From Elusimicrobiota bacterium (GTDB taxonomy: Bacteria; Elusimicrobiota; JBDRON01), in contig JBDRON010000102.1 in assembly GCA_043810025.1 (NCBI GenBank), positions 4,634 through 68,633 of the forward strand: a DNA stretch of 64,000 bases, read 5' to 3'. The number at the start of each line of letters is the position of its first letter. The stretch's first letter is position 1. The translations under genes were made by a program, and so were the position numbers. Under the pieces are notes generated by a model. The model was given only the letters and a program-made list of their open reading frames with translations. It made no database searches and was not told the origin of the DNA. Of the stretch, positions 26,555 through 33,596 are shown piece after piece.

Positions 26555-26607
26555 AACGAAACTGGGGTCAGGTCTTGCAATGCAACATTTCTCCTTAACT
26601 ACTTTGC

Positions 26608-26667
26608 AATTTTGTTCCAATTATTATTTTATTTGCTATAATGTGGGATATTTGCTATAATGCGGGA
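26608..26667 (+). repeat. Left 41-bp direct repeat plus 19-bp tandem duplication containing an extended -10 (TGCTATAAT)
   Basis: aattttgttccaattattattttatttgctataatgtggga (26608-26648) identical to 33135-33175. Confidence 0.9.
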
Positions 26668-26699: not shown

Positions 26700-27485
26700 A
26701 TGTTTAATACCAGACTGTTTGTTGTCGTAATTTTGGCCTTCTTTATTTTTGGAGGTTGTGGGAAGAAAACAGAGAAGTTGGAAATTAGAAATCACTATAG
26801 TCAGGGCAGGATTGATAATCTTTCTGCTCAGGAATTAGAGTTGGAGAAAACCATCAGGGAAGCCTCCAAACTTCCTGCGGCGATAGAATATGCCAAAGGG
26901 ATGTTCGAGGCTGCTTATCTTATTGCTGAAGAACATAGAGATCTTGGCTTTACTGTATATTTTAAAGATCAGGAATTGATCGTTGAACGAGGTCTTAAGA
27001 CATCGCTGGAACCAACTTTAGTTGTACCTCTGTCTGACCAGGGAATTTTTAATGCAAAATTATTTTTTGATGACGGGATGATTAATGAACAAGAAGAGTT
27101 CCTGATTGTTAATGCCACTTTTAAACCTGCCTGGGAAGCCTCGTATCGAATAACGGAGATGCAAAATTACGGGATCAGAAAATTAATGAAATTAGATGGG
27201 CTGATGCATGTGGTTTTATTGAATGAGAAAAATTATGAATTTAAGGGTAAAGTAGTGAAGAATGAATTATCCGTATTAAGGCTCAGTAATCAATGGCTTG
27301 TTTTTAATGGTTTGGAGGGGATAGCCGATGTGAGAATGGAGATAACGCCTAAACATTCGATCGCCATGTATAAATTGATCATGAATGATCTTAAAAAGTC
27401 CCAATCTTTAGCAGAAAAAATGAAGATACTGAAAAAATTTCAGGAAATTAGAAACAGATGCCTGGTAAAAAAATCTCTAATATAA
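26700..27485 (+). CDS. Hypothetical lipoprotein
   Basis: Hydrophobic signal plus IFGG|C lipobox; SD gaggagg. Confidence 0.7.
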   Translation: MFNTRLFVVVILAFFIFGGCGKKTEKLEIRNHYSQGRIDNLSAQELELEKTIREASKLPAAIEYAKGMFEAAYLIAEEHRDLGFTVYFKDQELIVERGLKTSLEPTLVVPLSDQGIFNAKLFFDDGMINEQEEFLIVNATFKPAWEASYRITEMQNYGIRKLMKLDGLMHVVLLNEKNYEFKGKVVKNELSVLRLSNQWLVFNGLEGIADVRMEITPKHSIAMYKLIMNDLKKSQSLAEKMKILKKFQEIRNRCLVKKSLI

Positions 27486-27489
27486 ATCA

Positions 27490-28344
27490 ATGTTTATCCT
27501 TCAGATGGTTGATTCTTTACGTTTAGGGAAAATATTTTCCATCCTACTCGGAATAATCACCATCTCCTTGTATTCTTACGGATCTGTCCATAGCCTGACT
27601 GTCGAATCGATATTGCTAAATTTGATCATCAGTTTAGCGTCTTTATTTTTTCTTCTTTCCGCGGGTTATTTGATGAACGATTACTGCGATATCCAATATG
27701 ACTTAATTAATAAACCGGAGAAAGTTTATCTTACACGATTCGTCTCCCGGAAGTTGGCGCGCTATATTTCCGGAATATTTTTTGTTGTTGGCCTATTAAT
27801 CGCGGCAGCGGTGAACAGATATTTTTTTATCTGGTATATTTTCGACACATTGGGATTAATTTTTTATAATTTGCAGGGGAAAAAGTTCTATTACTTGAAA
27901 AGCGTGCTTGTTTCTTTATTAGTTGTGTCCATTTATCCGCTTTCCCTGGCTTTAACTTCTAATGGTTTTGATTCACCGCGCCGGGACTCGCTATTGATTT
28001 TCCCGTTCTGGCTTTTTCTGACGATTTTTGCTTTTGAATTAATGCAGGATATCAAAGATTTTGCCGGCGATCAGATGTATCAGGCAAAGACTTTACCGGT
28101 GAAGATAGGGATTTTTAAAACCAGAAACTTAGCCACAATCTCAGCTTTGGCGGCAATTCCGGTGGCTTTTCTTCCCTACTATTTTGGACAATGCGGCGGG
28201 ATCTATTTGTGGGGATATTTATTGGTCACGCCCATTTTAATTGGGACAATGTTTCTGAATAATAAAATATTTTCCTGCGGGTTATTTTTTAGCATTTTAG
28301 GCATCACGGTGGCTTCCTTATTTGATATAATGGTGATTAAATAA
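27490..28344 (+). CDS. UbiA-superfamily prenyltransferase, DGGGP-synthase-like
   Basis: MNDYCDIQYDLINKPEK and ELMQDIKDFAGD...KTLPVKIG Asp-rich motifs; about 8 TM. Confidence 0.85.
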   Translation: MFILQMVDSLRLGKIFSILLGIITISLYSYGSVHSLTVESILLNLIISLASLFFLLSAGYLMNDYCDIQYDLINKPEKVYLTRFVSRKLARYISGIFFVVGLLIAAAVNRYFFIWYIFDTLGLIFYNLQGKKFYYLKSVLVSLLVVSIYPLSLALTSNGFDSPRRDSLLIFPFWLFLTIFAFELMQDIKDFAGDQMYQAKTLPVKIGIFKTRNLATISALAAIPVAFLPYYFGQCGGIYLWGYLLVTPILIGTMFLNNKIFSCGLFFSILGITVASLFDIMVIK

Positions 28345-28346
28345 TT

Positions 28347-29558
28347 ATGAAACAGATTGCCGGATTTAATAAATATCTTTACCTGTGCAAAGCCTTCTTC
28401 AACTGGAAAATTAGGGAACTACCTTGGGAATTCATTCTCTTTATGATTAAGCAGATGCGCCATGAAAAAATTACTCTCGATGATAAAAGAATATTTATTA
28501 ACACTACTTATACCCCATTTCCTTCACCAGCCTTTGATACAGCGATTAAAACATTTGTCAGTTTATCGAAGGGTAAAGCGATTCCTTTTTCCGTTTTTAT
28601 CTCGCTTACTAACCGTTGCCCGCTGGATTGCTGGCATTGCAGTAAGGTCAGCGGAGAATCCCACGAGATCAGTTTCGAAACTCTATCCGGGTTAATCAAA
28701 CAATTGCAGCTGCTGGGTGTTTGCTGTATTGGTTTTACCGGTGGCGAGCCGGCCTTACGCGCTGATTTGGAAAAATTAATTGCCGAAGTTGATAACCGTT
28801 CCTACACACTTTTGTTCACTTCCGGTTATTTGATTAATCAAGAACGGGCCAGGGAATTGAAAAAATCGGGACTAACCGCCATCGTCGTTAGTCTGGATTC
28901 TCATCTTCCTGAAGAGCATAATCGCCTGAGAAAATCCGAGAAAGCTTTTGCTGATGCTGTGGCGGCAATAACCGGTTCTTTAACGGCCGGCATTTATACG
29001 GCAACATCCCTGGTAATTTCCCGGGAAATGCTTTATTCTGATAAAATAGATGATTATATCCGCTTTGTCTCCCAACTGGGAGTGCAGGAAATAAGAATCC
29101 TCGACCCCAAACCTTGTGGTAAATTAATGAATACTACAGGAGAAATGTTCGATGAAAATGATGCCGCTAAACTCCGGGAAGTTCAGCATCAGGTGAATCA
29201 GAACAATAAATTGGCCAAAATTATGGCGCTAAGCCAAATTAATTCTCTGGGGAACTACGGCTGCAATGCCGGACGAACCCATCTCTATATTAATGCTCAC
29301 GGCGAGGTCTGTCCTTGCGATTTTGTGCCGCTTTCCTTCGGCAACATTTTAACAGAAGATTTCCAGACAATTTATCTGAGGATGAATCAGTTTTTCCCCC
29401 GGCCGGCGTATGGTTGTATCATTTCTAAAATTCATCAACAAATTAATCAGTCGGCAAAAGGGCAATTACCGATCAAGGATTTGCCGACCATTGAAAATTT
29501 GTTAGGCCAGGTTGGACCAAGACCAGTACCAAAATTATTCGAGAAATTAGGAGGATAA
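28347..29558 (+). CDS. Radical SAM enzyme with SPASM/twitch domain
   Basis: CPLDCWHC, TGGEP, GCNAGRTHLYINAHGEVCPC. Confidence 0.9.
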   Translation: MKQIAGFNKYLYLCKAFFNWKIRELPWEFILFMIKQMRHEKITLDDKRIFINTTYTPFPSPAFDTAIKTFVSLSKGKAIPFSVFISLTNRCPLDCWHCSKVSGESHEISFETLSGLIKQLQLLGVCCIGFTGGEPALRADLEKLIAEVDNRSYTLLFTSGYLINQERARELKKSGLTAIVVSLDSHLPEEHNRLRKSEKAFADAVAAITGSLTAGIYTATSLVISREMLYSDKIDDYIRFVSQLGVQEIRILDPKPCGKLMNTTGEMFDENDAAKLREVQHQVNQNNKLAKIMALSQINSLGNYGCNAGRTHLYINAHGEVCPCDFVPLSFGNILTEDFQTIYLRMNQFFPRPAYGCIISKIHQQINQSAKGQLPIKDLPTIENLLGQVGPRPVPKLFEKLGG

Positions 29559-29559
29559 A

Positions 29560-30007
29560 ATAAGTAAAGTAAGCAGCAGGCCGATTACTTGGATTATTGC
29601 CGTTATTTCTGCAGTAGTTGGCGGTTTTATGGGAGGGTTGCTTGGCAGTATAGGCGGGGGGCATGATCCAATGGCAATGGTTCTACGTATTTCTGGTCTG
29701 ATCAGTGGTTTTGCGGTCGGTTATTATTATGTGCATTTTACTCTAAAGGATAAGACTAAAATAATTCGTAATGGTACTATTTATGGAGGTATCGCTGGTT
29801 TAGCTTTCTGGCATATCGGTTTGGATTCCGGTAATAGTAATTTCAATAGTAAGGATGTTTTTCGATAAAGATCGAACAATTGAAATTGGAACACTTGTTA
29901 GTGTCACATCTGGGGCAATCATAGGAGCATTATTCGGAGTTGTCATCGGACTTGTTTTAGGATTGGTATTATCTCTCTTTCTTGCCTTTGAGGAAAATGG
30001 TGACTGA
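29560..30007 (+). pseudogene. Frameshifted glycine-zipper membrane protein (about 148 aa if repaired)
   Basis: AGGAGG followed by ATA at 29560; open frame to TTT 29805-07; +1 frame continues SGISVWIPV...GALFGVVIGLVLGLVLSLF to TGA 30007. Confidence 0.6.
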
Positions 30008-31082
30008 AGTTTTTTTTAAAAATACCTCTAGCCTCTGTCCGATTTGCCGGGAAGAAATTAAGGCTCAGCTTTTTCAAAAAGAAGGCGGAATCATGATCGC
30101 TAAAGAGTGTCGTTTACATGGGCAATTTAGCGCTCTGGTTGATCCCGATGCTGATTTGTATCGGCAAGCAATATCTCACCGGCAAAAAAGAGGAGAAATT
30201 CCCTTTGCGACGGTTATTCCCGTTACCCAAAGATGCAATTTAAAGTGCCGCTGGTGTTATTTACCGGAAAGAGGAAGTGAACCGGAGATAGCGGCGATTA
30301 AGAAAATAATTGAACGGTGTCAGTCCAAATTTATCGTTTTTTCCGGTGGAGAACCAACCTTAAGCACAGATTTGTTTGAATTAATTCGTTATCTAAAAGC
30401 AAAATATTCGGCGAAGTCGGCGGTCCTGCTGACCAACGGCCTTAAACTTGCCGATGCGGACTATTGCCGCGAACTGAAAAAAGCCGGCTTGGACTATCTT
30501 GTTTTTTCCTTTAATGGTTTTCGCCCGCAGACTCATCAATATTTTAATCATCAGGATTTGCTGCCCTTAAAATTAAAAGCTTTAGAAAACATTAAAAGAT
30601 TGAAAATCTGGACAATACTGTCCATGACTTTAGCCAAAAATGTTAACGAAGATGAGTTGTCAACGGTGTATCAATTTAGTTTAAATAATTTGGATTTTGT
30701 CCGGCAAATCAGACTGCGCAATGTTTCCGAAATTGGCATTTATCAGAAAGGAAAGCTTCTTTATCTTTCCGATTTGATTAAAATAGTTTCTCAGGCCAGC
30801 GGGATTTCCCTTGCAGAGATGTCGAAGAATAATGCTAATTTTAATCGCTTCAACAAAACCGCTAACTATTTTGTGCTGAATATAAAAATGCCATATAGCA
30901 AACAAAACACGTCAGTTGTTGAGAAAGTAAATTTTCGCCTGGAGATTTTTTTCTGGCCGACGCTCTTAAATATCGATTTGCGCCAATGCCGCCTTTTTAA
31001 TATTGATCATTTAACCAATACTGGAGAAATTTTGCCTTTCTGGGAAGCCCTTTATCAAAATGAAAAAAAGTTTGTGGGTTAA
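29997..31082 (+). CDS. Radical SAM protein with a Tes/MJ0619-like N-terminal metal-site domain
   Basis: TSSLCPIC...IAKECRLHG; CNLKCRWC; SGGEPT; LLTNG; C-terminal GEILPFW. Confidence 0.8.
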   Translation: MVTEVFFKNTSSLCPICREEIKAQLFQKEGGIMIAKECRLHGQFSALVDPDADLYRQAISHRQKRGEIPFATVIPVTQRCNLKCRWCYLPERGSEPEIAAIKKIIERCQSKFIVFSGGEPTLSTDLFELIRYLKAKYSAKSAVLLTNGLKLADADYCRELKKAGLDYLVFSFNGFRPQTHQYFNHQDLLPLKLKALENIKRLKIWTILSMTLAKNVNEDELSTVYQFSLNNLDFVRQIRLRNVSEIGIYQKGKLLYLSDLIKIVSQASGISLAEMSKNNANFNRFNKTANYFVLNIKMPYSKQNTSVVEKVNFRLEIFFWPTLLNIDLRQCRLFNIDHLTNTGEILPFWEALYQNEKKFVG

Positions 31083-31929
31083 AATTATCCGTCCTTTTAT
31101 TTCCCTTTTGGCCGGCTTACTTAAATCCCCGGTAAATATTTATCAAATGGATTTTGACCGGTGCGCGGAAACTTATGATTCAGCGGCTACCAGGAATCTG
31201 CTGGGAGGAATTACCGCTGAATTAATCAAAAAATTAGATTTAAAATCCGGCTGGCGTTGTCTGGAATTGGGTTGTGGCAGCGGAGAAGCGACAAAAATAA
31301 TTGACCGGTTGATTCAACCTAACGGTTCCCTGAAGGCCTGTGACATCTCGGAAAAAATGATTAATGCCGCCAAAGCAAAATTTGCCGCAGATAATTCAGT
31401 AACTGAATTTGTTCAGCAAGATATGGTGAACTTTTTGCAGGAATGCCCGGCTAATTATTTTGATCTTGCCGCTGGTTTCTGGTCGATTGATTACAGCGAT
31501 CCTAAAAGAATACTATCCGAGATTAAGCGTGTGCTGGTAAAAAATGGAATGACGGCGATGCTGGTCAATACTCAACAGTCTTTGCTGGAATTGCAGGAAA
31601 TTGTTGTTCCGCTATTGCTCAAGCACCCTTTTGCCTTAAAGTGTTTACCCGGAATAAATTTCCCCAGAAGCGCTAAATTCTTTAAAAAACTTACGGAAGA
31701 AGCCGGACTTGTTTTGGAGAGCATGGAGAATAAAAAATGCCAATATTGTTTTCAGTCCGCTGAGGCCGTAATGGTTTGGATGAAAGAAGGCGGTCCTTGC
31801 GCCGGTTTTCGCGGGGCCTTAAAAGAAAAATATCGGGAACATATCTTTGAGCATATTCGGGAAAGAATAGAGCGTAAAGGTAACCTTACTGTTACTTTTG
31901 ATTATTTAGTTTACATCGGTAAAAAATGA
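31060..31929 (+). CDS. Class I SAM-dependent methyltransferase
   Basis: CLELGCGSG motif I; ACDISEKM; FDLA. Confidence 0.88.
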   Translation: MKKSLWVKIIRPFISLLAGLLKSPVNIYQMDFDRCAETYDSAATRNLLGGITAELIKKLDLKSGWRCLELGCGSGEATKIIDRLIQPNGSLKACDISEKMINAAKAKFAADNSVTEFVQQDMVNFLQECPANYFDLAAGFWSIDYSDPKRILSEIKRVLVKNGMTAMLVNTQQSLLELQEIVVPLLLKHPFALKCLPGINFPRSAKFFKKLTEEAGLVLESMENKKCQYCFQSAEAVMVWMKEGGPCAGFRGALKEKYREHIFEHIRERIERKGNLTVTFDYLVYIGKK

Positions 31930-33065
31930 TTAATCAGCCAAAAACATTTAGGGGCCGCTTAAATCGTTGGAAAACAAAAGCGTTAATTACCGCTCAGGAT
32001 TTTCTCTTGCCGACATTGGGGGAGGCAAAACCCGGCTCATTTTGGCAATCGTTGATCAGAAATTTTTCTCAAAAATTTATCGGCGGCTACCCTTATGTAA
32101 TTAAGCTTGATCTGACCAATCGGTGTAATCTGAAATGCAAAATGTGTTATGCCGCCAACGACGGAACTGCATTGTCTTTTGAGAAAATAATTGAAATTTT
32201 AAGCCAGTTCCACAATGTCCCAATCCGGCTGGATTTGTTAGGCGGCGAACCGTTAATGCGCGATGATCTTGTCGAGGTTGTTAAATTTGCCAAAGCAAAA
32301 ATTAGGGTTAAGCAGATTGTCCTTTTTACCAATGCCACTCTGATGACGGAGAAACTGGCCAATAATTTGTTTTTGGCCGGTGTGGACAAAGCCTTGGTGA
32401 CTTTTATTTCCTTCGATGCTCAAAAACACGACGCTTTTACCGATGTCCCGGCTTCCTGGGGTCAAGCGATAGAAGGGATTAATCATCTTGCTAAAGCCGG
32501 CATCAAAACGCATACCTTTACGGCGCTGCACCGGGAAAATATCGGCGATTTTGAGCAAATAAATAAGTTTGTTCAAAATAAACTCAAACTTCATCCGCTT
32601 TTTTATCAATATGTGCCGCAGAGAAAAAATGATCCACTTTCACCGGATCCAAACGATTGGCAGAAAATAAAAAACCAAATTTTGTCGGCCAATGCCGAAC
32701 ATTTCCGTTACATCAAAAGAGTTCTTACTTTTTACGGAAGGATCTGTTTGGGGGGACATTACTCATTTTCGATTAAGACGAACGGCGGTGTCACTCCCTG
32801 TCCGTTTATTCGCGATCCGGAAATCGGTAATGTCTTTAAAGAGAATTTTTGGGACATTTTTGCTCAAAGATTCGCCAAGGAAAAATTTAGGAAATTTATG
32901 AGTTTACCTGAAGAATGCCGTAAATGTTCAATTAAAAATTTTTGCGGCGGCGGTTGCCGAGCGGGAAATAATTTGACTGATGCCGGTTATTCAAGATATG
33001 ACGATAGCTGTCCCGGACCATCTTCAGAGCCGGTTTCAATAAATACTTTACCGACCTTTTTTTAG
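31926..33065 (+). CDS. Radical SAM/SPASM protein
   Basis: CNLKCKMC, GGEPL, CLGG...VTPCPF, ECRKCSIKNFCGGGCRA...C. Confidence 0.9.
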   Translation: MINQPKTFRGRLNRWKTKALITAQDFLLPTLGEAKPGSFWQSLIRNFSQKFIGGYPYVIKLDLTNRCNLKCKMCYAANDGTALSFEKIIEILSQFHNVPIRLDLLGGEPLMRDDLVEVVKFAKAKIRVKQIVLFTNATLMTEKLANNLFLAGVDKALVTFISFDAQKHDAFTDVPASWGQAIEGINHLAKAGIKTHTFTALHRENIGDFEQINKFVQNKLKLHPLFYQYVPQRKNDPLSPDPNDWQKIKNQILSANAEHFRYIKRVLTFYGRICLGGHYSFSIKTNGGVTPCPFIRDPEIGNVFKENFWDIFAQRFAKEKFRKFMSLPEECRKCSIKNFCGGGCRAGNNLTDAGYSRYDDSCPGPSSEPVSINTLPTFF

Positions 33066-33134
33066 AACATTTTTGCCTTTTTGGTGTTAAGTGGTCAAAT
33101 TTACTGCTTTCATCGGGTTAGACAACAGATTAGT

Positions 33135-33175
33135 AATTTTGTTCCAATTATTATTTTATTTGCTATAATGTGGGA
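33135..33175 (+). repeat. Right 41-bp direct repeat / promoter of the DUF2062 gene
   Basis: Identical to 26608-26648; includes TGCTATAAT, followed by gATG. Confidence 0.9.
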
Positions 33176-33176
33176 G

Positions 33177-33596
33177 ATGAAAGGATTTTTCTACGGGAAG
33201 CTTGTTGAGCCGATAAAAATAGCTTATCAAAAGCTCTTGCGCCTAAACAATACGCCGCAGGAAATTGCTTTCGGGTTTGCGGTGGGGGCGTTTATCGGTG
33301 TTTTCCCGACTTTCGGGTTAGGCGGTTTGTTGATTATTGGGTTGTGTTATTTGTTCCGCCTAAATTATGTCGGGGCGGCGGCTGGGGCGGTGATTATCAT
33401 GAATCCGCTATCTTCTCCTTTGTTCTGGGCGATTAGCGCCTGGGTTGGGGGGCTGATTTTTTCCCGGGATGCGGGGATAATTATTGCTTCCTTAAAGAAC
33501 AAAACTTTGTTTAAGCATCTGGACGATCTGGCCGTTGTTTATCTGACCGGCAATCTGATTATCTCCCCCTTATCGCTGTTATTTCCTATTATCTAG
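33177..33596 (+). CDS. DUF2062-family membrane protein (C-terminus probably continues to 33652 in the -1 frame)
   Basis: TPQEIAFGFAVGAFIGVFPTFG...NPLSSP; -1 frame reads LIAVISYYLVKKIIKSRRR. Confidence 0.8.
   Translation: MKGFFYGKLVEPIKIAYQKLLRLNNTPQEIAFGFAVGAFIGVFPTFGLGGLLIIGLCYLFRLNYVGAAAGAVIIMNPLSSPLFWAISAWVGGLIFSRDAGIIIASLKNKTLFKHLDDLAVVYLTGNLIISPLSLLFPII

What the first reader, a model, noticed from the sequence alone, without database searches (positions are those of the whole stretch)
29997..31082. Reduced tetraether-synthase-like radical SAM lacking auxiliary cluster ligands
Seen: TSSLCPIC...KECRLHG N-terminus and a C-terminal IDLRQC...GEILPFW segment echo Tes, whose C-terminus has D.r..C...G.iiPFC. 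The protein is only about 361 aa, has no CxxxCGxCxxH motif between the N-domain and the RS motif, and has W where the PFC cysteine would be. Established: archaeal GDGT-MAS uses extra Fe-S clusters for tail-to-tail coupling. Inference: a bacterial Tes paralog doing different chemistry, or relying on the two neighbouring SPASM proteins for auxiliary clusters (a split enzyme).
Basis: partly seen in the sequence, partly recalled or inferred. Interest (0 to 1): 0.7.

Follow-up and report, generated by a model that had tools for sequence, protein, structure and literature searches.

The report
Tes-fold radical SAM without auxiliary clusters
This gene encodes a radical SAM enzyme with the fold of the archaeal tetraether lipid synthase but without either of that enzyme's two extra iron-sulfur clusters, and it sits in a rare, undescribed prenyltransferase gene cassette of Omnitrophota and Elusimicrobiota that probably makes a modified isoprenoid lipid.

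Summary
ORF 29997-31082 (361 aa) has the rubredoxin-like CX2CX20CX2H ribbon and the CX3CX2C radical SAM motif.

**Fold.** Its best sequence and fold match by far is GDGT-MAS/MJ0619 (7TOL: E 1e-35; Foldseek E 4e-29, TM 0.83-0.86; next best is MoaA at 0.53).

**What is missing.**
- The [4Fe-4S]N segment is absent.
- All four [4Fe-4S]C ligand positions are replaced: N290, F318, F334, W349.
- Tyr459 of GDGT-MAS is an invariant His in this clade.
- No cysteine lies between residues 158 and 330.

It is not a Tes or TrsS orthologue (147 and 148 bits against cut-offs of 450 and 490). In a tree it lies in a derived cluster-less clade of a large family of short bacterial homologues.

**Cassette.** In all 10 orthologue loci examined it sits with an orphan lipoprotein, a DGGGPS-like UbiA, a Twitch/SPASM radical SAM and a methyltransferase. 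The second SPASM gene and a small membrane protein are optional.

**Reading.** "Different chemistry" is supported. "Split enzyme" is not:
- SPASM2 is missing from the Elusimicrobiota cassettes.
- SPASM1's recurrent partner elsewhere is the methyltransferase.
- Cluster-less relatives exist without any SPASM neighbour.

**Specific to this window.** There is a further 31-aa in-frame deletion, and the neighbouring small membrane gene is frameshifted. The substrate and the reaction are inferred, not shown.

The parts
29997..31082 (+). Tes-fold radical SAM gene ('TesL'), 361 aa, the subject of the finding
   Evidence: ORF. Pfam Zn_ribbon_HMPTM plus Radical_SAM. 7TOL is the best sequence and fold match. 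AF2 model pLDDT 95.3.
30015..30140 (+). Rubredoxin-like zinc/iron ribbon, residues 7-48; ligands C14, C17, C38, H41 (CX2CX20CX2H)
   Evidence: Pfam PF23545, 48.7 bits. Aligns with C9, C12, C33, H36 of MJ0619.
30216..30677 (+). Radical SAM core, residues 74-227; CX3CX2C at C80, C84, C87 (nt 30234-30257); GGEP motif
   Evidence: Pfam PF04055, 80.5 bits. Invariant C, GGE and TNG columns.
30843..31067 (+). C-terminal domain homologous to the [4Fe-4S]C domain of GDGT-MAS but without ligands: N290 (C338), F318 (M439), F334 (C455), H338 (Y459), W349 (C470)
   Evidence: Alignment with the 7TOL sequence. The signature is shared by 39 clade members.
30885..30926 (+). Site of a window-specific in-frame deletion of about 31 aa, in the helical hairpin between the two C-domain strands (low-pLDDT loop, residues 301-310)
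   Evidence: Alignments. Spacer of 27 aa against a clade median of 58 and 97 in Tes. pLDDT 63 in that block.
26700..27485 (+). Cassette-specific orphan lipoprotein (lipobox GGC/AGC), 261 aa; weak SCP2-like fold signal
   Evidence: No Pfam or NCBIfam hit. Only 30 clusters among 5.8 billion proteins, all 53-65% identical. Invariant G19-C20. AF2 pLDDT 79; the top 25 Foldseek hits are all SCP2 domains, but at E 0.01-0.1.
27490..28344 (+). UbiA-family intramembrane prenyltransferase, DGGGP-synthase-like
   Evidence: Pfam UbiA, 93.5 bits. Best NCBIfam matches are GGGP geranylgeranyltransferases, below cut-off. The only PDB match is M. jannaschii DGGGPS 6M31, E 4.7e-11.
28347..29558 (+). Radical SAM with a partial SPASM (Twitch-like) domain, 'SPASM1'
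   Evidence: Pfam Radical_SAM plus SPASM. Conserved Cys at 91, 95, 98 plus 127, 257, 306, 322, 324, 357. Directly upstream of TesL in all 10 orthologue loci.
29560..30007 (+). Small glycine-rich membrane protein gene, split over two frames (shift near 29800-29806), with no canonical start codon at the homologous position
   Evidence: It is intact (133-143 aa) in the Omnitrophota-type loci and absent from the Elusimicrobiota cassettes.
31060..31929 (+). Class I SAM methyltransferase (UbiE/BioC-like) with a C-terminal extension
   Evidence: Pfam and NCBIfam. Present in all 10 cassettes. Homologous MT paired with a SPASM1-like gene elsewhere.
31926..33065 (+). Radical SAM with a full 7-Cys SPASM domain ('SPASM2'); an accessory gene
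   Evidence: Pfam. Conserved Cys at 274, 292, 331, 334, 340, 344, 362. Present only in the Omnitrophota-type cassettes.
26603..26651 (+). Left copy of a 49-nt direct repeat carrying an extended -10 promoter-like site, upstream of the cassette
33130..33178 (+). Right copy of the 49-nt direct repeat (94% identical), just before the DUF2062 gene

Best explanation
**What it is.** The gene encodes an intact, probably active radical SAM enzyme with the GDGT-MAS/Tes architecture: a rubredoxin-like ribbon, a radical SAM barrel and a C-terminal domain. It comes from a derived bacterial lineage that has lost both auxiliary [4Fe-4S] sites and most of the helical 'second lipid' pocket.

**Where it sits.** It is one of the two cassette-specific parts, together with an orphan lipoprotein, of a rare and patchily distributed operon. 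The operon also carries a DGGGP-synthase-like UbiA prenyltransferase, a Twitch/SPASM radical SAM and a class I methyltransferase.

**Most likely mechanism.**
1. UbiA attaches a C15-C20 prenyl chain to a membrane acceptor.
2. The Tes-like enzyme binds that isoprenoid tail in its hydrophobic tunnel. Using only its SAM cluster, it carries out one step initiated by the 5'-deoxyadenosyl radical. That step could be an H-abstraction followed by attack on a C=C (cyclisation or cross-link), a desaturation or rearrangement, or an addition to a double bond. The invariant His338 would serve as the acid/base.
3. This is not the two-SAM, cluster-stored coupling of two saturated methyl termini that Tes performs.
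4. The methyltransferase and SPASM1 act as separate enzymes in sequence.
5. The lipoprotein binds or moves the product outside the cytoplasm.

**Shown:** the fold, the motifs, the loss of ligands, the phylogenetic position and the cassette conservation.
**Inferred:** the isoprenoid substrate, the reaction type, and the roles of the partners.
For: **Fold and motifs.**

**Ligand loss.** It is shared by 39 clade members and maps onto one well-supported clade.

**Role of the lost cluster.** In Tes, [4Fe-4S]C holds the first substrate radical as a C-S adduct during sp3-sp3 coupling (PMC9433317).

**The gene is still under constraint.** 86 of 92 clade-conserved columns are kept and the changes are conservative. 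Similarly short spacers occur in other family members.

**Cassette.** Conserved in all 10 orthologue loci across two phyla, with 1-4 nt gaps or overlaps between genes.

**Pointers to an isoprenoid lipid.**
- The UbiA is nearest to archaeal DGGGPS.
- A short-chain FPP/GGPP synthase lies directly upstream of the cassette in two Omnitrophota loci.
- The lipoprotein is as rare as TesL (30 clusters) and has a weak SCP2-like fold signal.
- A 924-aa protein fuses a short Tes-like domain to a 'lipid biosynthesis' B12 radical SAM.
- The genome has a separate MenA, so the cassette UbiA is not the menaquinone enzyme.
Against: - No biochemical data exist for any member of the short family.
- The UbiA acceptor is unknown. 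GGGPS/PcrB is absent from all 9 cassette genomes, so the canonical archaeal diether route is not present.
- Other cluster-less relatives sit in quite different contexts: next to PqqD, next to a ferredoxin, or alone. The superfamily is therefore not lipid-only.
- The SCP2 signal is not statistically significant and has no sequence support.
- The FPP/GGPP synthase next to the cassette may simply be the housekeeping gene; it is the only one found in genome G004.
- sp3-sp3 coupling without an auxiliary cluster has been suggested for GrsA/B (PMC11186832). Loss of the clusters therefore does not strictly exclude coupling.
- This window's copy has an extra deletion and sits next to a frameshifted gene.
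Confidence: 0.5

Rival explanations
1. Split enzyme. The Tes-like protein forms a complex with the adjacent SPASM1 (and SPASM2 where present). Their auxiliary clusters replace the lost ones, so the complex still couples two lipid tails as Tes does.
For: SPASM1 is directly upstream of TesL in all 10 orthologue loci, often 1-4 nt away. SPASM1 and SPASM2 keep conserved auxiliary-cluster cysteines.
Against: - SPASM2 is absent from the Elusimicrobiota cassettes.
- SPASM1-like proteins are far more widespread (723 hits at E<=1e-30). They pair or fuse with the methyltransferase where no Tes-like gene is present.
- Cluster-less relatives occur without any SPASM neighbour.
- In Tes the C cluster lies inside the fold, 8 A from the substrate carbon. 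Here those positions carry conserved F, F and W.
- SPASM1 and SPASM2 have complete radical SAM motifs of their own.
Confidence: 0.1
2. Prenylated aromatic or quinone-like cofactor pathway. UbiA prenylates a ring, the UbiE-like methyltransferase and the radical SAMs modify the head group without O2, and the SCP2-like protein plays a UbiJ/UbiT-like carrier role. The Tes-like enzyme would then act on the head group rather than the tail.
For: UbiA plus a UbiE/BioC-like methyltransferase. UbiJ-SCP2 is among the fold hits of the lipoprotein. The host lineages are commonly described as anaerobes (general knowledge, not tested here).
Against: - The genome already has a MenA.
- The cassette UbiA is nearest to DGGGPS, not to UbiA/MenA.
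- The carrier candidate has a lipobox, so it is probably extracytoplasmic and away from the cytoplasmic enzymes.
- No ring-forming genes are present in the cassette.
Confidence: 0.15
3. Protein or peptide maturase. The three radical SAMs modify a ribosomal substrate, such as the conserved lipoprotein or the small membrane protein, as in RiPP or anSME-type systems.
For: SPASM enzymes are mostly peptide or protein maturases (general knowledge). A cluster-less relative (P0107) lies next to a PqqD gene and further radical SAMs. The lipoprotein is unusually conserved (71% mean column identity).
Against: No PqqD/RRE domain and no precursor-like short ORF in the cassette. The small membrane protein is absent from half of the cassettes and broken here. 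A UbiA prenyltransferase has no known role in peptide maturation (general knowledge).
Confidence: 0.1
4. In this genome the copy is a decaying relic. The extra 31-aa deletion and the frameshifted neighbour would mean the cassette is being lost.
For: The deletion is unique within the clade. The small membrane gene is frameshifted and lacks a canonical start. This copy has the lowest retention of clade-conserved columns (93.5%).
Against: - The other six genes are full length.
- The deletion is in frame and falls in a hairpin that is equally short in other family members.
- The model folds at pLDDT 95.
- 86 of 92 conserved columns are kept, with conservative changes.
- The broken gene is one that half of the cassettes lack anyway.
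Confidence: 0.1

Closest known systems
GDGT-MAS / tetraether synthase Tes (MJ0619; PDB 7TOL, 7TOM; NCBIfam NF045702)
   Same: Same overall fold (TMq 0.83-0.86). Same rubredoxin-like CX2CX20CX2H ribbon, the same radical SAM core and SAM-binding motifs, and a homologous C-terminal domain.
   Different: - No [4Fe-4S]N domain.
- All [4Fe-4S]C ligand positions replaced (N, F, F, W).
- Tyr459 replaced by His.
- Helical second-lipid region 27 aa against 97 aa.
- 147 bits against a cut-off of 450.
- Bacterial host lacking GGGPS.
Radical SAM (seleno)protein TrsS (NCBIfam NF045646) and the wider family of short (about 400 aa) bacterial MJ0619 homologues
   Same: No N-terminal auxiliary cluster domain in the short homologues. 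Same ribbon plus radical SAM core. TrsS is the best NCBIfam hit (148 bits).
   Different: Far below the TrsS cut-off of 490. Most short homologues (106 of the 231 sampled) keep the three C-cluster cysteines, which this clade lacks. The function of TrsS is itself unknown.
Archaeal DGGGP synthase (M. jannaschii, PDB 6M31), for the neighbouring UbiA
   Same: Nearest solved structure and nearest NCBIfam models; both Asp-rich motifs are present.
   Different: 98 bits against a cut-off of 296. The GGGP-forming enzyme (PcrB/GGGPS) is absent from all 9 cassette genomes.
HpnH and MqnE type single-cluster radical SAMs that add the 5'-deoxyadenosyl radical to a C=C of an isoprenoid or enol ether (recalled from memory, a lead only)
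   Same: Only the SAM cluster is needed; the substrate is an unsaturated hydrophobic molecule.
   Different: No detected sequence relationship beyond the radical SAM core. Not tested here.

Membership tests
Tes / GDGT-MAS (NF045702) | Score at or above the NCBIfam equivalog cut-off (450 bits) | tested here: not met
   146.7 bits. A true bacterial Tes (P0119) scores 685.
Tes / GDGT-MAS | Rubredoxin-like CX2CX20CX2H metal site | tested here: met
   C14, C17, C38, H41 align with C9, C12, C33, H36.
Tes / GDGT-MAS | N-terminal auxiliary [4Fe-4S] (C73, C77, C80 plus His) between the ribbon and the radical SAM motif | tested here: not met
   The segment is absent; the spacer is about 38 aa against 61 aa.
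Tes / GDGT-MAS | CX3CX2C radical SAM cluster and SAM-binding motifs | tested here: met
   C80, C84, C87; GGEP and TNG columns are invariant.
Tes / GDGT-MAS | C-terminal auxiliary [4Fe-4S] (three Cys plus labile Met439) | tested here: not met
   C338, M439, C455, C470 correspond to N290, F318, F334, W349. There is no Cys between residues 158 and 330. The identity of the three Cys ligands was inferred from conservation, not read from the structure.
Tes / GDGT-MAS | Strictly conserved Tyr459 next to the substrate carbon | tested here: not met
   His338, invariant in the clade.
Tes / GDGT-MAS | Overall three-dimensional fold | tested here: met
   Foldseek 7TOL/7TOM, E 4e-29, TMq 0.83-0.86; the next fold scores 0.53.
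Tes / GDGT-MAS | Tail-to-tail coupling of saturated isoprenoid chains | not testable with these tools
   Needs lipid analysis or an enzyme assay.
TrsS (NF045646) | Score at or above the cut-off (490 bits) | tested here: not met
   148.2 bits.
MJ0619-like superfamily (Pfam Zn_ribbon_HMPTM plus Radical_SAM) | Both Pfam domains above their gathering scores | tested here: met
   48.7 bits against 27, and 80.5 bits against 29.5.
SPASM/Twitch radical SAM | C-terminal Cys-rich SPASM or Twitch motif | tested here: not met
   No Pfam SPASM hit on this protein and no C-terminal Cys motif.
Archaeal-type diether lipid pathway (GGGPS plus DGGGPS) | GGGPS/PcrB present in the genome | tested here: not met
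   0 of 9 cassette genomes; the controls were positive.
Archaeal-type diether lipid pathway (GGGPS plus DGGGPS) | UbiA reaches a DGGGPS equivalog cut-off | tested here: not met
   Best score 97.7 bits against 296.

The most novel reading that the evidence does not exclude
The cassette makes a so far unknown class of bacterial isoprenoid membrane lipid in Omnitrophota and Elusimicrobiota. A DGGGPS-like prenyltransferase would work without GGGPS. The prenyl tail would then be cyclised or cross-linked by a Tes-fold radical SAM that forms a C-C bond with no auxiliary cluster, and an SCP2-like lipoprotein would handle export.
Probability: 0.2. Interest if true: 0.8.

Novelty: new variant of a known kind. 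Interest (0 to 1): 0.6.

Why it matters
Tes/GDGT-MAS is the only characterised member of its fold. Its mechanism rests on an auxiliary cluster that stores a substrate radical.

This result shows a whole bacterial clade that keeps the fold but has lost both auxiliary clusters. That clade includes a subclade locked into a conserved cassette with a DGGGPS-like prenyltransferase. It therefore gives a natural test of what the fold can do with the SAM cluster alone.

It also points to an undescribed isoprenoid lipid or cofactor in two poorly known, mostly uncultured phyla.

Finally, it is a caution for surveys that count 'bacterial Tes homologues' as markers of tetraether (brGDGT) producers. These short homologues lack the catalytic apparatus for that reaction.

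Tried and rejected
- **True Tes or TrsS orthologue:** rejected on score cut-offs and missing ligands.
- **Canonical archaeal diether pathway:** rejected, since no PcrB/GGGPS is found in 9 genomes and no geranylgeranyl reductase scores above the cut-off.
- **Cassette UbiA is MenA:** rejected, since a separate MenA exists on another contig.
- **Riboswitch or other regulatory RNA in the cassette:** none found. Promoter and terminator scans were no better than shuffled sequence.
- **Sequence-level support for an SCP2 fold in the lipoprotein:** none from Pfam or from a PDB profile search.
- **Homology between the small membrane protein and the one next to a distant SPASM1-like gene:** not significant.
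- **First locus search with a diverse alignment:** failed for lack of a conserved stretch and was repeated with close sequences.
- **Inspecting the former cluster site in three dimensions:** not possible, because model coordinates are not exposed.
- **Literature search:** found no description of this cassette or clade.
Full report
**1. The observation**

The + strand carries an ORF ending at 31082. It starts at ATG 29997 (361 aa) or TTG 29982. The ATG matches the N-termini of the orthologues.

- the ribbon SLCPIC...KECRLHG, which is C14, C17, C38, H41 (CX2CX20CX2H);
- the radical SAM motif CNLKCRWC (C80, C84, C87);
- the C-terminal IDLRQC...GEILPFW.

Pfam finds Zn_ribbon_HMPTM (48.7 bits, cut-off 27) and Radical_SAM (80.5 bits). 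'HMPTM' is the old name of MJ0619.

**2. Relation to Tes**

- By sequence, the only strong match among solved structures is GDGT-MAS/MJ0619 (7TOL, E 9.9e-36). The next matches are at E of about 1e-6.
- An AlphaFold2 model built on 84 homologues has pLDDT 95.3 and pTM 0.93.
- Foldseek against the PDB gives 7TOL and 7TOM at E 4e-29 with query-normalised TM 0.83-0.86. MoaA follows at 0.53.

The protein is nevertheless not an orthologue of any named family. It scores 146.7 bits against Tes (cut-off 450) and 148.2 against TrsS (cut-off 490). A real bacterial Tes (P0119) scores 685 bits.

**3. The metal sites**

The GDGT-MAS paper (PMC9433317) describes four metal sites:
- a rubredoxin-like site, C9, C12, C33, H36;
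- [4Fe-4S]N, bound by C73, C77, C80 and a His;
- the radical SAM cluster, bound by a CX3CX2C motif (C98, C102, C105 by my alignment);
- a C-terminal [4Fe-4S]C with a labile Met439, lying 8 A from the substrate carbon. This cluster traps the first substrate radical as a C-S adduct.
- In addition, Tyr459 lies 4.2 A from the substrate.

I recovered the 7TOL sequence from a printed alignment and aligned it with 231 homologues. The three Cys ligands of [4Fe-4S]C are not named in the paper's text. By conservation they are C338, C455 and C470, because C438 and C456 vary even within Tes. This assignment is an inference.

In the window protein:
- the ribbon and the radical SAM ligands are kept;
- the [4Fe-4S]N segment is missing altogether (spacer about 38 aa against 61);
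- the C-site positions read N290, F318 (Met439), F334 and W349;
- Tyr459 is His338.

The protein has nine cysteines: three in the ribbon, three in the radical SAM motif, and C108, C157 and C331. None lies between residues 158 and 330.

**4. Phylogenetic position**

Among the 231 sampled homologues:
- 3 have both auxiliary sites (MJ0619 itself and two Tes-type homologues);
- 106 lack the N site but keep all three C-site cysteines;
- 39 share the N/F/W signature of the window;
- most of the rest have other non-Cys combinations at these positions.

In a maximum-likelihood tree rooted on Tes:
- the short, N-less proteins form one clade (SH-aLRT 100);
- its basal branches keep the C-site cysteines;
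- a derived clade of 59 of the 106 rows (support 96) holds nearly all the cluster-less sequences;
- inside it the window's clade of 19 rows has support 100.

The loss of the C cluster is therefore old and shared. It is not a defect of this gene. Two caveats apply: the root is an assumption, and the sample is biased towards relatives of the query.

**5. What is special to this window**

Orthologues are 389-414 aa long. The distance between the C338 and M439 equivalents is 97 aa in Tes and 58 aa (median) in the clade, but 27 aa here. The next shortest in the clade is 52. This region is helical in the solved enzyme. It plausibly corresponds to the amphipathic helices that form the second lipid pocket of GDGT-MAS, which is an inference.

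The deletion is in frame and falls in a low-confidence loop of an otherwise confident model. Comparably short spacers (19-32 aa) exist in other family members. The window protein keeps 86 of 92 columns that are at least 95% conserved in the other clade members, and its changes are conservative. I therefore read it as functional, although it is the most reduced member seen.

The 424-nt 'gap' upstream (29560-30007) is really a small glycine-rich membrane protein gene. In this window it is split over two frames near 29800 and has ATA where orthologues have ATG.

**6. The cassette**

A scan of one genome per species found only eight species with an orthologue at 43-52% identity. Three are named Omnitrophota or Omnitrophica, four are Elusimicrobiota, and one is an unclassified 'bacterium'. 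None of 60 other genomes of the window's phylum has one.

All ten orthologue loci with enough flank carry the same neighbours, in three layouts:
- Omnitrophota type: MT, SPASM2, lipoprotein, UbiA, SPASM1, small membrane protein, TesL.
- Elusimicrobiota type: lipoprotein, UbiA, SPASM1, TesL, MT.
- The window: lipoprotein, UbiA, SPASM1, small membrane protein, TesL, MT, SPASM2.

One more divergent member of the clade (P0041, 41% identical) stands alone.

The partners are as follows.
- **Lipoprotein.** It has no family assignment, an invariant lipobox Cys, and only 30 clusters among 5.8 billion proteins. It is thus as rare as TesL itself. Its model (pLDDT 79) hits only SCP2 lipid-carrier domains, UbiJ among them, but at E 0.01-0.1 and with no sequence support. 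This is a hint, not a finding.
- **UbiA.** Its only match among solved structures is M. jannaschii DGGGP synthase (E 4.7e-11). Its best NCBIfam models are GGGP geranylgeranyltransferases, all far below cut-off.
- **SPASM1.** It keeps about five extra conserved cysteines beyond its radical SAM motif, which looks Twitch-like.
- **SPASM2.** It has the full seven-Cys SPASM motif.
- **Polyprenyl synthase.** A short-chain FPP/GGPP synthase lies directly upstream of the cassette in two Omnitrophota loci.
- **Rest of the genome.** None of the nine genomes has GGGPS/PcrB or a geranylgeranyl reductase above cut-off. The window's genome has a separate MenA.

**7. The split-enzyme idea**

SPASM2 cannot be a general partner, because half of the cassettes lack it. 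SPASM1 belongs to a family of hundreds of proteins of about 404 aa (723 at E<=1e-30). These include fusions to a methyltransferase (P0359). In a distant Omnitrophota locus, a SPASM1-like gene overlaps a homologue of the cassette's methyltransferase (30% identity, E 2e-34), with no UbiA and no Tes-like gene nearby. SPASM1's constant partner is therefore the methyltransferase.

Cluster-less relatives of TesL also occur with no SPASM neighbour at all. In addition, the former ligand positions carry conserved aromatic residues. I therefore rate the split enzyme as unlikely, but not excluded. A multimer prediction could not be run.

**8. Most likely mechanism**

The cassette-specific trio is the lipoprotein, UbiA and TesL. 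It has been added to a more widespread MT-SPASM1 pair.

I propose that UbiA makes a C15-C20 prenylated membrane compound. The Tes-like enzyme, using only its SAM cluster, then performs a single radical step on the isoprenoid tail, with His338 as acid/base. The Tes reaction needs two SAM molecules and the C cluster to hold the first radical, and that apparatus is gone here. The absence of a recognisable saturase also means that double bonds may remain available for radical addition.

These steps are inferred. The wider family sits in varied contexts, including next to PqqD. Coupling without an auxiliary cluster has been suggested for GrsA/B. I put the confidence at about 0.5.

**9. Novelty**

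The held literature does not describe this clade or this cassette. It is a new variant of a known kind: the MJ0619 fold without its auxiliary clusters, embedded in a new gene cassette.

Noticed in passing
window 29560-30007: The small glycine-rich membrane protein gene between SPASM1 and the Tes-like gene is split over two frames (junction near 29800-29806). It has ATA where orthologues have the ATG start. It also carries a 10-aa insertion relative to orthologues.
   Followed up: partly
window 26603-26651 and 33130-33178: Direct repeats of 49 nt, 94% identical, carrying a TGnTATAAT promoter-like box, bracket the whole cassette. The left copy has an extra 19-nt tandem duplication. This fits insertion of the cassette behind the promoter of the DUF2062 gene.
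   Followed up: partly
window 33081-33596: The DUF2062 ORF as listed (TTG 33081) runs through the right-hand repeat. An in-frame ATG at 33177 (MKGFFYGK...) directly after the promoter-like box is the more plausible start.
   Followed up: no
P0128 (924 aa) and P0228 (950 aa), metagenomic proteins: P0128 is a natural fusion of a B12-binding radical SAM ('lipid biosynthesis B12-binding/radical SAM', HpnJ-like) with a short Tes-like domain. P0228 carries its Tes-like match at residues 510-749, but its N-terminal half was not scanned.
   Followed up: no
L083 1-15083: A cluster-less short homologue (P0107) lies directly after a PqqD gene. It is followed by two more radical SAMs and a B12 radical SAM, with a reverse transcriptase plus bAvd pair (like a diversity-generating retroelement) 4 kb downstream.
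   Followed up: no
L084 5794-8209 and L090 6001-8527: Tandem pairs of Zn-ribbon short Tes-like genes sit among several B12-binding radical SAM genes.
   Followed up: no
L092 6126-8652; P0359: A methyltransferase homologous to the cassette's overlaps a SPASM1-like radical SAM in an Omnitrophota contig that has no UbiA or Tes-like gene. A 697-aa protein fuses the two domains. This recurrent two-gene module has no described function.
   Followed up: partly
L006 1154-2044 and L009 1750-2646: A short-chain (FPP/GGPP-type) polyprenyl diphosphate synthase lies about 25 nt upstream of the cassette's methyltransferase in two Omnitrophota genomes.
   Followed up: partly
L089 1629-4002: Another cluster-less short homologue (P0048) is preceded, 11 nt upstream, by a DUF362 plus 4Fe-4S ferredoxin-domain protein. 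This could be a dedicated electron donor.
   Followed up: no
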